Numbered from the stretch's first letter, positions 36,689-47,870 are shown. The stretch is 64,000 nt of DNA from an uncultured candidatus Porisulfidus sp. (GCA_965215765.1 OZ244118.1:1101007-1165006), one strand, 5' to 3'. Notes: generated by a model not told the origin, from the sequence alone. A program made the numbers and translations.

Positions 36689-37709
36689 AGAAAGCTGCAG
36701 AAGGGCATACGGGGCGGTCTTTTTCTTGCAAAAAATCTCTGACGCTAATTTTGCCAAGCCGCCTATTCTATACAGCTGTTATTGAAACTGTTGCTGGAAC
36801 TGTTTCTGCAGAAGTCAGGGTTGAGTGTTGTCGGGGCACAGGATAACTGCGTATGTTTCTGGTTTACTATACGGGTAAGCTACGGGAAATTCTTCTTCTA
36901 CACAATATGATCGGACATCGTAGCAATTATGAACATGTTGCACTTTTTACTCCAAGGGTAATTGATAGATGTTGGAGTTCAAGAACTCGTCACGCCGGAT
37001 TCAGTATCCGCACACCACTGGTAGTTTCCCGGTCACCAAGTGTTCGACCTTCACTTGACTCGGCACATCTTTCAGCTGTGAAGGATGGTTCGAAGGAACC
37101 GCCTCATAACATGGAAGGTGTGCATGGTTTGGTGTTGGCAAAAGGAATGCTTCCCGGTTTATCACCATACGGGCAGTCGTCTGTTGTTTGGCTCGCTTTT
37201 TTGTCGGGTAGTCGTGCGTAACCCGGAGGTCACTCGCTTATGCCTGTCCATGTTGTGTTTCGCCGGTGCTGATTGATTTTTATGCCACCTGCTTTTCTCT
37301 GTGCAAACTGCACCTGAGTGGCTCAAGAATTCAAGGGTCGAGCCTCTGAAACGGGGCAAAGCGGGTGGGTCTTGTTTTGCCCGAAACAGGCGAAGACAGG
37401 TTGTTATAGGCTTTTCAGGTTAAAATGGCTGCCAATTGGTCTTGGAGTGATGGGTTAAGGTTCTAGCCGATGTGAGCAAATGGAGGTGGGAAAGTTGTAT
37501 GTAGTAATGGTTGTTTCAATGCGTAAGCAGGCACTTGTTCTTTGCGTGTCGGTTTGGGGAAGGTGGCAAAAAAGGTTAAGAAACATCAAGCGTCCATGCT
37601 TGATAGTCAAAAATTTTATTACGGTCGGGAAAGGCTGTTTCTTCGATTGCAGAAGTGTGGGCGAATTGCGTTGGTCACACTTCGTGCCTGTAAATTGTTA
37701 CAGGAGGCC

Positions 37710-38852
37710 ATGATGGCAAACAATGTTGGGGATTTATTTGGGAAGTACTCGGCTACTTACAGTAAAGCTGGTGGAGAAGGCGAGGATCTTGTGCCGCTGG
37801 ATCCAAAGGAGCAAAAAAAAGCGTCTAGAAATGAACTGCATGGTTTTGACGGGGGTGCTCTTCGCGTTAGCAAGCGTGGCGGTAATTTTCTGAATCGCGT
37901 TGTGTGTTGGCTTGAAGACCGTGTTCTTTCGCTTACGAGAAGCGTTGGTCGTGAGCCTACAATTCGGCAAAAGCACAGCAGTGAATTTGCCAGGCATGTT
38001 AGTGCTGCGCTCACAGAAATAGGTGAGCATGGTGCTGACGGTGTGGAGAATCATTATCTAATGAAGAAAATTGAACTTGTTCAGAAGCGTGATTTGCCGT
38101 TGCGTTCAGGTTTTGTTCGATCCATTCTTTGGCAAGTTGCTCTACTGCAGTGTGACAGTGGGCAAGGTGTACTGCCAGATATTGCCAAGCAGGCGTTTCT
38201 GGCAGAACCACCAGCAGAACCACCAGCAGTACCAGGTGTGGATTATGGCGGTCGTGGTGAAGGTGAGCATCAAATTCCGGACGATAGGAATGTGGCACAC
38301 AGAGGTGATCAGAACCAGCCTCCTCCCGACATTCCGGCCAACAAGAATGTAGCTGGAGGCGGTCAGCAACTGCCTCCCCAGATGGCGGCGGGAGTTCATA
38401 AAGCCGATGTGAGAGACTATAAAGACTTTGCAAACCTGTCTAGTGGTGACTTCACTGAAAAGCTTTGCCAATACATGGCAAATTTTGTCTCCAAAATTGT
38501 GGATGGGCAGTTGGATCAACGCGAATGTCGCATCACCAACCATCAGTGCGACCAAATTGTTCGAGAGACGACTTTGAGACTTGCTGATAACAAATATCCA
38601 GGGGGTGAAGGCGAAGATCGTATACTTACCACCTTTGTGACTGCTCAAGACATGCACAAGCAACTTGTTGCCGAGAATGAGCAAAAAGGTTTCCCTAGAT
38701 CCCCGGCTGATTTGGAAAAGACTGTGGTTACTTTAATAGGATACAACATAGGCGTAAACCAAGGGGACTGGATGGAAACGATTGTTTCTGAAAATTTAAA
38801 CAACCTGATGATAGAGCCCCCACCAGAGAATGCCGATCAGGGTATACCGTAG
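37710..38852 (+). CDS. Family-B paralog B3 (380 aa). It has the N-domain plus an FTEKLC...KYPGGEGEDRIL module.
   Basis: ATGATG follows AGGAGG. The divergent leader variant shows mostly nonsynonymous changes in the leader ORF. Confidence 0.65.
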   Translation: MMANNVGDLFGKYSATYSKAGGEGEDLVPLDPKEQKKASRNELHGFDGGALRVSKRGGNFLNRVVCWLEDRVLSLTRSVGREPTIRQKHSSEFARHVSAALTEIGEHGADGVENHYLMKKIELVQKRDLPLRSGFVRSILWQVALLQCDSGQGVLPDIAKQAFLAEPPAEPPAVPGVDYGGRGEGEHQIPDDRNVAHRGDQNQPPPDIPANKNVAGGGQQLPPQMAAGVHKADVRDYKDFANLSSGDFTEKLCQYMANFVSKIVDGQLDQRECRITNHQCDQIVRETTLRLADNKYPGGEGEDRILTTFVTAQDMHKQLVAENEQKGFPRSPADLEKTVVTLIGYNIGVNQGDWMETIVSENLNNLMIEPPPENADQGIP

Positions 38853-38859
38853 CAATCAC

Positions 38860-45446: not shown

Positions 45447-45449
45447 CAA

Positions 45450-47870
45450 TCACTCTATGATCAAGCCTGTGGTCAATGAGGTGCGGAAGTTCAAATTTCC
45501 GCTCCCGACCTTGTTCAAGTCTGGCGAGTCGAAGTAGACTTTCAGTAACAAGCACCTTTGTGTGCCCCAGCTTTCCAGCAGCCACCGCAACAAGGACAAC
45601 CTTGGGGTGCCCCAGATTTTCAGCTACCGCAGGTTCCTCAAGCATCCCATCGTCAAGAAGGTGCGGAAGTTCAAATTCCTGATCCCGACCTTTCTCAAGC
45701 AGGGCGAGTCGAAGGAGATTTTCAGTTTGTGCAACAGAACGATTTAGAACTTCAACAAAGTCTTTTTAAGCCTGTAAAGGACAAGTTGGTTGATCCGGCG
45801 CTTCACGAAAAAGGTTTTTATAACGACAGGACACATGCGCAAGCGAAATCAACCACCGCTGACCAGATCGCCTCTGAAATGATGGAATATATTATTCAAC
45901 GTTGTGGTAGTACTTAAAAGGTAAAAGAGGTAACAGACGATAATCTGAAGCTTCTGAGGATTGCAGGAAATGGAACCAGCTAACAGATGCAGTAGCAGGC
46001 ATCGGGAAATGTAATTGATGGCTTAGCCACTAATCATAAGGCTAAAATGGGTACACGTGTCGAAGAGTTATATGGAAGAGCGGTAGCAGGGGACAGGTAA
46101 AGGACAGCACGTGAAGTCAAGCAGCCGTCGCAGCAAGTAACAACCATGACTTGTGCTTGCCCCCCGGCTTTCCAGCCGCCGCCGCAACAAGGACAACCTT
46201 GGGGTGCCCCAGATTTTCAGTAACAAGCACCTTTGTGTGCCCCAGCTTTCCAGCAGCCACCACGATAGCAATCATGACTTGTGCTTGCCCCGTGTGCCCC
46301 TGGGTTTTAGCCACCACCGCCCGGGCAATTACAACCTGCACCTCTCTCCCGGGACGATCTTTCGCAGTCAGTCGGGTCATCAGTCAGACTCCTTTAGCCA
46401 CCTTTAGCCGCCGCCGCAACAAGGACAACCTTGGGGTGCCCCAAATTTTCAGCTACCGCAGGTTTCTCAAGCATTCCATCGTCAAGAGGGTGCGGAAGTT
46501 CAAATTCCTGATCCCGACCTTTCTCAAGCAGGGCGAGTCGAAGGAGATTTTCAGTTTGTGCAACAGAACGATTTAGAACTTCAACAAAGTCTTTTTAAGC
46601 CTGTAAAGGACAAGTTGGTTGATCCGGCGCTTCACGAAAAAGGTTTTTATAACGACAGGACACATGCGCAAGCGAAATCAACCACCGCTGACCAGATCGC
46701 CTCTGAAATGATGGAATATATTATTCAACGTTGTGGTAGTACTTAAAAGGTAAAAGAGGTAACAGACGATAATCTGAAGCTTCTGAGGATTGCAGGAAAT
46801 GGAACCAGCTAACAGATGCAGTAGCAGGCATCGGGAAATGTAATTGATGGCTTAGCCACTAATCATAAGGCTAAAATGGGTACACGTGTCGAAGAGTTAT
46901 ATGGAAGAGCGGTAGCAGGGGACAGGTAAAGGACAGCACGTGAAGTCAAGCAGCCGTCGCAGCAAGTAACAACCATGACTTGTGCTTGCCCCGTGTGCCT
47001 CTGGGTTTTAGCCACCACCGCCCAGGCAATTACAACCTACACCTCTCTCCCGGGACGATCTTTCGCAGTCAGTCGGGCCAACAGTTAGGCACCTTTAGCC
47101 ACCGCCGCCTCAAGCATCCCATCGTCAAGAAGGCGCGGAAGTTCAAATTTCCGCTCCCGACCTTGCTCAAGTCTGGCGAGTCGAAGTAGATTTTCAGTAA
47201 CAAGCACCTTTGTGTGCCCCCCAGCTTTCCAGCCGCCGCGGCAGCAACCATGACTTGCGCCTGCTCCAAGTGCCCTTGGTTTTTAGCCACCACCGCCCGG
47301 GCAATTACAACCTGTACCTCCACCCCAAGATAATCTTTCGCAGTCAGTCGGGTCATCAGTCAGACTCCTTTAGTCACCGCCGCATCAAGCATCCCATCGT
47401 CAAGAAGGTGCGGAAGTTCAGATTCCCGGTTCCGATCCTGTTCAAGCCGGGCGAGTCGAAGGAGATTTTAGTAACAAGCACCTTTGTGTGCCCCAGCTTT
47501 CCAGCAGCCACCACGATAGCAATCATGACTTGTGCTTGCCCCGTGTGCCCCTAGGTTTTAGCCACCGCCCGGGCAATTACAACCTGCACCTCCACCCCAA
47601 GACGATCTTTCGCAGTCAGCCGGGTCATCAGTCAGACTCCTTTAGCCACCGCCACCTCAAGCATCCCATCGTCAAGAAGGTGCGGAAGTTCAAATTTCCG
47701 ATCCCGAACCTGTTCAAGCCGGGCGGGTCGAAGGAAATTTTAGTAACAAGCACCTTTGTGTGCCCCAGCTTTCCAGCCGCCACCACGGCAGCAACCATGA
47801 CCTGTGCTTGCCCCGTGTGCCCCTCATTACCTGTGCTGCCTGCATGTTGGCTTGAGATTGGTGCGTTTCG
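45450..47870. repeat. Field of about 10 degenerate ~245-bp repeats (expanded from the 38860-39450 type) interleaved with two copies (45650-46100 and 46480-46930) of a decayed QFVQQ module riddled with stops.
   Basis: The cagtaacaagcacctttgtgtgcccc(c)agctttcc..gccaccgc motif recurs at least 8 times. Identical ORF fragments lie at 45558..45917 and 46558..46746. Confidence 0.75.

What the first reader, a model, noticed from the sequence alone, without database searches (positions are those of the whole stretch)
36690..45700. Recent ~6.6-kb segmental duplication inside the array, with one copy already inactivated by a CAG to TAG nonsense mutation
The segment 36.7-39.1 kb (downstream module, leader and B3) reappears at 43.3-45.7 kb with a 6594-bp offset and near identity. 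B4 lies between the two copies. The second B3 copy has an in-frame TAG at 44742 and its downstream half is still in frame, so the lesion is very young. B8 shows the same pattern, an in-frame TAG at 56797 with an intact in-frame C-domain at 56878..57174. This captures birth-and-death evolution of the family as it happens. Programmed readthrough is an alternative explanation.
Basis: seen in the sequence. Interest (0 to 1): 0.65.

Follow-up and report, generated by a model that had tools for sequence, protein, structure and literature searches.

The report
Duplicated orphan-gene cassette with nonsense-mutated copy
In a sponge-symbiont-type bacterium, a 30-kb tandem array of ten genes from an otherwise unknown family contains a duplicated two-gene cassette in which one copy carries a strain-private CAG-to-TAG stop, an ordinary case of gene-family birth, homogenisation and decay rather than a recoding device.

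Summary
The sequence facts hold. Window 35626-38994 recurs at 42224-45588 (95.1% over 3372 nt). TAG at 44742 replaces CAG, and the frame stays open to 45446. B8 has an in-frame TAG at 56797 followed by 124 open codons.

The framing needs correction.
- The repeat is the right arm of a duplicated two-gene cassette (B2+B3, B4+B3'). B4 is the paralog of B2, not a spacer.
- Only 36965-38964 is near-identical (15 mismatches in 2000 nt). The C-domain patch at 36028-36764 differs by 17%.
- Three co-specific haplotypes (lysS/gmk 99.3-99.7% identical) all carry both copies, so the duplication predates their split. Reticulate site patterns point to ongoing gene conversion as the cause of the near-identity.

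The B3' TAG is private to the window: the other five B3 copies have CAG. That makes it a young lesion, or less likely a consensus error.

The B8 TAG is different. It is present in all five haplotypes, no intact allele exists in the protein database, it falls at a predicted domain linker, and one haplotype adds a downstream frameshift.

TAG is a normal terminator here (lysS, B0, B2, B3, B9), so programmed readthrough is unsupported.

The family is a true orphan: 24 hits among 1.84 billion representatives. This is ordinary evolution in a new family.

The parts
30856..32298 (+). Left arm of cassette 1: conserved leader plus the 5' part of B2, including the N-domain
   Evidence: 94.8% identical to 39787-41223, offset 8931
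31622..36688 (+). B2, a 1688-aa family member: N-domain, several internal modules of about 165 aa, C-domain
35626..38994 (+).
   Evidence: 95.08% identical to 42224-45588
36028..36764 (+). Hyperdivergent patch inside the repeat: linker and C-domain of B2 compared with B4, about 17% nucleotide divergence
   Evidence: 126 mismatches, 118 of them copy-specific in both window and L001
36965..38964 (+). Near-identical core: spacer/leader plus the B3 coding sequence. It shows reticulate site patterns across six copies
   Evidence: 15/2000 mismatches to 43560-45558
37713..38852 (+). B3, intact, 379 aa. AGGAGG lies 5 nt upstream of the first ATG of the ATGATG start. Ends in TAG.
39787..41223 (+). Left arm of cassette 2: leader plus the 5' part of B4
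40551..43271 (+). B4, 906 aa, paralog of B2 with fewer internal modules
42224..45588 (+).
44307..44744 (+). B3' 5' part, 145 codons. It ends at the premature TAG 44742-44744 (codon 146, inside an N-domain helix).
   Evidence: Called as a 145-aa protein (P0017) in the deposited genome.
44745..45446 (+). B3' 3' part, still in frame and open, with two further private non-synonymous changes nearby (44626, 44956)
38202..38234 (+). 12-nt (EPPA) repeat inside B3, also at 44796-44828. Copy number varies between copies and haplotypes.
55717..56799 (+). B8, 360 codons, ending at the in-frame TAG 56797-56799. That codon aligns with Q368 of B9, in the predicted inter-domain linker.
56800..57174 (+). B8 C-domain relic: 124 open in-frame codons plus a stop. 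GGAGG lies 7 nt before an internal GTG at 56878.
58252..59709 (+). B9, 485 aa, intact. It is the closest full-length paralog of B8 and is absent from three haplotypes.
57350..57796 (-). Copy of the 3' end of lysS (149 codons, 96% aa identity) carried along in the B8/B9 unit duplication. An older, degraded copy lies at 52430-52867.
45609..46920 (+). Two relic B2/B4-type internal modules (45609-46091 and 46438-46920) without an N-domain. They sit among degenerate 272-nt repeats downstream of B3'.

Best explanation
The window is part of a gammaproteobacterial chromosome of the sponge-symbiont family Candidatus Oxydemutatoraceae. Between purE and lysS it carries ten tandem members of an orphan protein family. 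Each member has a conserved N-domain of about 162 aa, disordered P/Q/E-rich linkers and variable helical C-terminal modules.

The array grows and shrinks by unequal homologous recombination between its repeated units, and gene conversion between paralogs keeps making it a mosaic. One such event duplicated a two-gene cassette: a large multi-module gene plus the short gene B3. This gave B2+B3 and B4+B3'. Module copy number then changed, which explains the 8931-nt versus 6594-nt offsets. The C-domains diverged or were replaced. The B3 region stayed about 99.2% identical through inter-copy conversion.

In the window's strain only, a C-to-T transition turned Gln146 (CAG) of the redundant B3' into TAG. 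This truncates the protein inside the N-domain. It is a young, probably neutral, loss-of-function lesion.

B8 carries an older CAG-to-TAG change that is fixed in the sampled population. It cuts the protein exactly at the linker before the C-domain. The product resembles the naturally short family members. The downstream C-domain is a relic that is being overwritten by B9-like conversion tracts and, in one haplotype, frameshifted.

Shown: the anatomy, the polarity of the changes, the strain distribution and the mosaicism. Inferred: the recombination mechanisms, the neutrality of the lesions and the lack of function of the fragments.
For: Context and family:
- The flanks are housekeeping genes.
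- The only other species with the family are Ca. Oxydemutatoraceae MAGs, at the same purE-lysS locus.
- There are ten N-domains in the window.

Cassette duplication and mosaic divergence.

Strain distribution of the duplication and of the B3' TAG:
- Both copies are present in L001 (19x contig) and L010 (8x contig), and those haplotypes have CAG at the site.
- The haplotypes are 99.3-99.7% identical to the window at lysS/gmk.

Gene conversion in the B3 core:
- Only 2 fixed copy-specific sites in the 2-kb core.
- The 8-site cluster at 37338-37348 and sites 37022, 37402, 38218, 38357, 38526 and 38730 show incompatible distributions.

No purifying selection between B3 and B3': pS 0.0078, pN 0.0068.

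Independent lesions elsewhere in the family:
- L010 copy 1 has an A8-to-A9 frameshift and another CAG-to-TAG.
- A related species has a split member.
- Module relics lie at 45.6-46.9 kb.

B8:
- TAG is present in all five haplotypes.
- No intact allele among 5.8 billion clusters.
- The linker position follows.
- B9 presence/absence and the lysS 3' fragments show duplication or deletion of whole units.

GC-to-AT transitions are the largest substitution class.
Against: - No reads could be inspected, so the private TAG at 44742 rests on one consensus sequence.
- The comparison haplotypes are low-coverage contigs (6-19x), all from one metagenome assembly. Their single-base indels (A9 in L010, the 1-nt deletion in L008) may be homopolymer errors.
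- With 9 differences, the dN/dS estimate for B3 versus B3' has no power.
- Four of five B8 haplotypes keep the 124 downstream codons open, and a GGAGG-N7-GTG sits in front of the C-domain. A still-functional split gene is therefore not excluded.
- The function of the family is unknown, so 'redundant' and 'neutral' are assumptions.
Confidence: 0.78

Rival explanations
1. The TAG at 44742 is a consensus or assembly error, or a minority-strain variant polished into the consensus of a mixed-strain metagenome. B3' would then be intact in the real genome.
For: TAG is private to one of the six B3 copies examined. The sample or samples hold several co-existing haplotypes of this locus, and near-identical repeats are where read mis-assignment happens.
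Against: It is a substitution, not a homopolymer indel. The same copy carries three more private substitutions (44546, 44626, 44956), as expected for a real diverging allele. The gene callers of the deposited genome see the same split (P0017, P0021). That only shows the window equals the deposit.
Confidence: 0.1
2. Programmed stop-codon readthrough or recoding: the TAGs in B3' and B8 are decoded (as Gln by near-cognate tRNA or a suppressor, or as Pyl), giving full-length proteins at a regulated level.
For: Both TAGs replace Gln codons, and near-cognate decoding of UAG would restore Gln (my own knowledge, not tested). The B8 TAG is kept in five haplotypes on two different flanking backgrounds (ACCGTT-TAG and ATCGAT-TAG). 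The downstream frame is open in four of them.
Against: - TAG is the ordinary terminator of lysS and of family members B0, B2, B3 and B9.
- No tRNA gene lies in the window or in any locus, and there is no Rfam element.
- The B3' TAG is absent from every other copy.
- The haplotypes sharing the B8 TAG are only 0.3-0.7% diverged, so sharing is by descent.
- L008 has a frameshift after the TAG, and the downstream part is overwritten by paralog tracts made mostly of non-synonymous differences.
Confidence: 0.04
3. B8 is not a pseudogene but a tolerated or useful domain split. The 360-aa product (N-domain plus middle domain) functions like the naturally C-domain-less members B0 and B3. The C-domain may be made separately from the internal GTG at 56878.
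For: The TAG falls in the predicted disordered linker (B9 residues 359-369) just before the C-domain helices. Natural members lacking the C-domain exist. The TAG is fixed in all sampled haplotypes and no intact allele is known. GGAGG lies 7 nt before GTG 56878, and a 98-aa ORF is called in three haplotypes.
Against: L008 has a frameshifted downstream part. The divergence time is too short to tell constraint from lack of decay: about 2% divergence over 375 nt predicts fewer than one disabling hit (inference). The internal RBS is simply the codons for Tyr-Gly-Gly-Gly.
Confidence: 0.3
4. The near-identity of the B3 core reflects a very recent duplication alone, without gene conversion. The divergent C-domain patch was imported later from another paralog.
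For: Divergence along the repeat is strongly heterogeneous. C-domain swapping between paralogs is seen at B8/B9.
Against: All three haplotypes already have both copies, and their orthologous copies do not group cleanly. The 37338-37348 cluster and at least six other sites are distributed across copies and haplotypes in mutually incompatible ways. That needs exchange between copies or between strains.
Confidence: 0.1

Closest known systems
Birth-and-death and concerted evolution of tandem multigene families in host-associated bacteria (for example the Anaplasma/Ehrlichia omp-1/p44 arrays and Bartonella bep arrays; from my own knowledge)
   Same: Tandem same-strand paralogs with conserved 5' parts and variable 3' parts. 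Unequal crossing-over changes copy number between strains. Gene-conversion mosaics are present. Truncated and fragmentary members sit beside intact ones.
   Different: The protein family is unrelated to any described one (no Pfam, NCBIfam, PDB or fold match). Every member has its own start and Shine-Dalgarno sequence, so there is no single expression site with silent cassettes. Function and localisation are unknown.
Polymorphic toxin / CDI-type loci with conserved N-terminal and variable C-terminal domains and orphan modules
   Same: A conserved N-terminal region joined to variable C-terminal modules, N-domain-less module relics downstream (45.6-46.9 kb), and strain-variable content.
   Different: No recognisable toxin, trafficking (PAAR, Rhs, LXG, TPS) or immunity domains. 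What follows each gene is a lysS 3' fragment and a noncoding leader, not an immunity gene. The 122-aa ORF after B2/B4 has no support beyond being open.
Programmed UAG/UGA readthrough or recoding (Pyl, Sec, leaky stops of phage coat genes; from my own knowledge)
   Same: An in-frame stop followed by an open, homologous, in-frame domain.
   Different: There is no conservation beyond strains 99.5% identical, no decoding machinery in the sequence available, TAG is used as a normal terminator, and one haplotype is frameshifted downstream.

Membership tests
Tandem segmental duplication (real, not an assembly artefact) | Two direct copies with extended collinear similarity | tested here: met
   35626-38994 matches 42224-45588 at 95.1%, and 30856-32298 matches 39787-41223 at 94.8%
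Tandem segmental duplication (real, not an assembly artefact) | Both copies recovered in independent assemblies with copy-specific differences | tested here: met
   L001 and L010 carry both copies. 118 copy-specific sites in 36028-36764 are shared by window and L001.
Recent duplication (younger than strain divergence) | Absent from, or single-copy in, closely related strains | tested here: not met
   All three haplotypes that cover the region have both copies, although they are 99.3-99.7% identical at lysS/gmk
Concerted evolution by gene conversion | Incompatible (four-gamete) site patterns between paralogs and orthologs, and patchy divergence | tested here: met
   (cluster 37338-37348 and sites 37022, 37402, 38218, 38357, 38526, 38730). 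One search shows B9-like tracts in the B8 relic.
Pseudogene by nonsense mutation (B3') | In-frame stop where the intact paralog and orthologs have a sense codon | tested here: met
   TAG against CAG in five other copies
Pseudogene by nonsense mutation (B3') | The variant is real in the DNA (read support) | not testable with these tools
   No reads are available, and the window's own genome could not be looked up
Pseudogene by nonsense mutation (B8) | In-frame stop at a codon that is sense in paralogs, with further decay downstream | tested here: inconclusive
   TAG aligns with CAG of B9. The downstream part is open in 4 haplotypes and frameshifted in 1 low-coverage contig.
Programmed stop-codon readthrough / recoding | Stop codon conserved across diverged lineages with a constrained downstream frame | tested here: not met
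   The B3' TAG is private. The B8 TAG is shared only among strains 0.3-0.7% diverged. The related species has an intact last member (P0004).
Programmed stop-codon readthrough / recoding | Decoding machinery (suppressor tRNA, pyl genes) or a recoding RNA element | tested here: inconclusive
   None in the window or loci. The rest of the genome was not available.
Programmed stop-codon readthrough / recoding | The codon is not the organism's routine terminator (for reassignment) | tested here: not met
   TAG ends lysS, B0, B2, B3, B9 and others
Polymorphic toxin / CDI-like system | Known trafficking or toxin domain, and a cognate immunity gene downstream of each variable C-terminus | tested here: not met
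   No Pfam, NCBIfam or PADLOC hits. The downstream modules are lysS fragments and leader.
Phase-variable contingency genes | A slippage-prone homopolymer in the 5' coding region whose length differs between strains and switches the frame | tested here: inconclusive
   A6-A8 at codons 34-36 of all ten members (A7 in seven, A8 in B3 and B3', A6 in B8). One A9 allele occurs in L010 copy 1, on an 8x contig.

The most novel reading that the evidence does not exclude
The purE-lysS array is a strain-hypervariable, recombination-shuffled repertoire of secreted host-interaction proteins of sponge symbionts. Its conserved, partly disordered N-domain would be a secretion or targeting signal. Expression of individual members would be switched by reversible lesions: gene conversion that erases or spreads stop codons, slippage at the A7/A8 run, and a maintained domain split or leaky TAG in B8. 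On this reading the 'pseudogenes' are part of a working variation system rather than decay.
Probability: 0.1. Interest if true: 0.65.

Novelty: new member of a known kind. Interest (0 to 1): 0.3.

Why it matters
The evolutionary process seen here is textbook: tandem duplication, gene conversion, then nonsense-mediated loss of a redundant copy. Its value is as a clean, datable example, because several co-occurring haplotypes of one symbiont species are available. The more useful by-product is the family itself. A lineage-restricted orphan family occupies about 30 kb (about 1% of a 3-Mb genome) at a fixed chromosomal site in Ca. Oxydemutatoraceae. It shows strain-level copy-number change and module shuffling, which marks it as a candidate host-interaction locus worth testing in sponge holobiont transcriptomes and proteomes.

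Tried and rejected
Function of the family. All of the following gave nothing significant:
- Pfam, NCBIfam, PADLOC and PHROGs scans.
- A PDB sequence-profile search.
- An AlphaFold2 model of B9 (mean pLDDT 63) searched with Foldseek against PDB (best E 1.6).

More strains:
- Two JGI metagenome scans, one with the TAG-site pattern and one with a conserved N-domain pattern, returned 0 hits.
- The window's own genome record could not be retrieved, so coverage and sample are unknown.

Recoding:
- tRNA scans of the window and nine loci found none.
- Rfam at gathering thresholds found nothing.
- Promoter and terminator scans were at shuffle level.

Rejected readings:
- Global TAG reassignment.
- The polymorphic-toxin reading, because there is no immunity gene and no known domain.
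- The 122-aa ORF after B2/B4 as a real gene. Its only hit is a sub-threshold DUF5538 match (E 0.007), and its start lies in sequence homologous to the stretch downstream of B9 that runs into the lysS 3' end.
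Full report
**1. Observation**

A self-comparison of the window shows that 35626-38994 recurs at 42224-45588. The match has 95.08% identity over 3372 columns, with 156 mismatches and 8 gap openings.

The reading frame that gives the 379-aa protein B3 (37713-38852) recurs at 44307-45446. There a single TAG at 44742-44744 sits where B3 has CAG, and the remaining 233 codons are open.

B8 (55717-) has an in-frame TAG at 56797-56799. It aligns with CAG (Gln368) of the neighbouring full-length paralog B9. 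It is followed by 124 open codons that encode the family's C-domain, up to the stop at 57172-57174.

The stated boundaries and the phrase 'near identity' are only partly right, as section 3 shows.

**2. Where this is**

The flanks are ordinary bacterial housekeeping genes: mutS, lepA, folP, a thiE-like gene, trpC/D/E, rpe, purK/purE on one side and class-I lysS, gmk and tusBCDE-type genes on the other.

The window matches a 2,997,607-bp contig deposited in NCBI/ENA. The only other species carrying the family are MAGs titled Candidatus Oxydemutatoraceae bacterium (Gammaproteobacteria), and they carry it at the same purE-lysS position. The named genus of this family is a sponge symbiont (PMC11685487).

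The window has ten members on the + strand between 29.7 and 59.7 kb. Each starts MAN(S/N)VGNLF.KYSATYSK. B3 at least has a strong AGGAGG upstream.

The architecture is:
- an N-domain of about 162 aa with 59 invariant positions across species;
- disordered P/Q/E-rich linkers;
- a helical middle domain;
- optional internal modules of about 165 aa (B2, B4);
- an optional helical C-domain of about 110 aa.

**3. Anatomy of the duplication**

The leader and first ~220 codons of B2 (30856-32298) are 94.8% identical to those of B4 (39787-41223).

The duplicated unit is therefore a two-gene cassette: leader, large gene, spacer, B3. The different offsets (8931 versus 6598/6594) come from B2 having more internal modules than B4.

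Divergence along the right arm is a mosaic:

| Segment | Divergence |
|---|---|
| 35628-36027 | 3.5% |
| 36028-36764 (linker and C-domain of B2 vs B4) | ~17% |
| 36765-36964 | 5% |
| 36965-38964 (spacer, leader, B3) | 0.75% (15/2000) |

The heterogeneity is highly significant.

Between B3 and B3', pS is 0.0078 and pN is 0.0068. The near-identity is therefore not due to protein-level constraint.

**4. Strain comparison**

Six contigs of one ENA metagenome assembly (ERZ25071281) carry the same locus. Where the lysS/gmk flank is present, they are 99.3-99.7% identical to the window there. They are co-specific haplotypes.

Two of them (L001, 19x; L010, 8x) cover the cassette pair, and both have both copies. 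In the divergent patch, 118 sites are copy-specific in both window and L001. The duplication is therefore older than the haplotype split.

In the 2-kb core, only 2 sites are fixed between copy 1 and copy 2 across the three haplotypes. An 8-site cluster (37338-37348) and at least six other sites are distributed in mutually incompatible ways. That is the signature of exchange between copies, that is, concerted evolution.

Position 44742 is T only in the window's copy 2. The other five copies have C. The same copy has three more private substitutions, two of them non-synonymous. The lesion is therefore derived, private and young, if the consensus is correct.

Other members show independent lesions:
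- L010 copy 1 has an A8-to-A9 frameshift and another CAG-to-TAG three codons before the natural stop.
- A related species has a member split in its N-domain.
- Two N-domain-less module relics lie at 45609-46091 and 46438-46920.

**5. B8 is a different case**

All five haplotypes covering B8 have the TAG, on two different immediate backgrounds.

A search with a 'repaired' B8 found no intact allele among 5.8 billion protein clusters. The best full-length hit is B9, at 71% identity.

The TAG corresponds to B9 Q368. This lies inside the low-confidence linker (residues 359-369) that precedes the C-domain helices in the AlphaFold2 model. The truncated product therefore keeps whole domains and resembles the naturally C-domain-less members B0 and B3.

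The downstream relic is open in four haplotypes. It carries B9-like conversion tracts in L003 and L007. In L008 it is B9-like from about 57010 and has a 1-nt deletion.

B9 itself is absent from three haplotypes. A 149-codon copy of the lysS 3' end lies after B8, and a degraded one lies after B6. Together these show that whole units, including the lysS-proximal junction, have been duplicated or deleted.

**6. Readthrough**

- TAG terminates lysS and the family members B0, B2, B3 and B9.
- No tRNA or Rfam element is present in the sequence available.
- The B3' TAG is not conserved.
- The B8 TAG is shared only among near-identical strains, and one of those is frameshifted downstream.

Low-level near-cognate decoding of UAG as Gln would restore the original residue. 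This rests on my own knowledge and was not tested. It would be incidental rather than programmed.

**7. What the family is**

It is a true orphan. A profile of the N-domain found 24 proteins among 1.84 billion representatives. There is no match in Pfam, NCBIfam, PADLOC, PHROGs or PDB sequences, and none by Foldseek against PDB.

The proteins lack a hydrophobic signal peptide (read directly from the sequences). The first ~80 residues are highly conserved yet predicted to be disordered.

A role as secreted host-interaction proteins is a reasonable guess for a symbiont. It remains a guess.

**8. Verdict**

This is a real, well-documented example of duplication, homogenisation and decay in a tandem family. 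It is ordinary in kind and lies in a new family.

- The direction and youth of the B3' lesion hold.
- 'Recent duplication' does not hold relative to the strains.
- 'B8 shows the same pattern' does not hold.
- Programmed readthrough is not supported.

What remains untested is read support for the two TAGs.

Noticed in passing
window 57350-57796 (-) and 52430-52867 (-): Copies of the last ~149 codons of the class-I lysS gene sit downstream of B8 (96% aa identity, intact frame) and B6 (degraded). Weaker traces of the same downstream module follow B2, B4 and B7. The array evidently grew by duplications that included the lysS-proximal junction.
   Followed up: partly
window 45609-46091 and 46438-46920 (+), within 45.5-48.0 kb: Two relics of the B2/B4-type ~165-aa internal module, without an N-domain, embedded in degenerate 272-275-nt repeats (46970-47824; also 38878-39415 after B3). 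This looks like a graveyard of family fragments.
   Followed up: partly
window 37813-37820 and 44407-44414; the equivalent position in all ten members: An A6-A8 run (A7 in seven members, A8 in B3 and B3', A6 in B8; encoding Lys-Lys, Lys-Asn in B8) at codons ~34-36 of every family member. One related haplotype (L010 copy 1, 8x coverage) has A9 and is frameshifted. This is either a slippage-prone switch or a homopolymer sequencing error.
   Followed up: partly
window 38202-38234 and 44796-44828: A 12-nt repeat encoding (A/V)(E)PPA inside B3. Its copy number differs between copies and haplotypes, from 1 to about 6 units.
   Followed up: partly
window 31622-36688 (B2): B2 looks composite. Residues ~828-1200 are homologous to the middle domain of B4 (residues ~198-410), as if two adjacent members had been fused with loss of the second N-domain.
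   Followed up: no
window 63102-64000 (and L003, L007-L009 downstream of gmk): A tandem repeat of 211 nt (4.3+ copies, 94%), starting with (CGTGGT)n, between gmk and the tusBCD-like genes. It gives chains of short overlapping ORFs whose number differs between haplotypes.
   Followed up: no
window 16631-17374 and 17944-18687 (+): A tandem duplicate pair of 247-aa class-I glutamine amidotransferase genes, 1313 nt apart.
   Followed up: no
L007, L008, L009 versus window and L003: B9 is present in the window and in one haplotype but absent from three others, where B8 abuts lysS. In L008 the B8 3' part is B9-like, as expected for a B8/B9 unequal-crossover deletion.
   Followed up: partly
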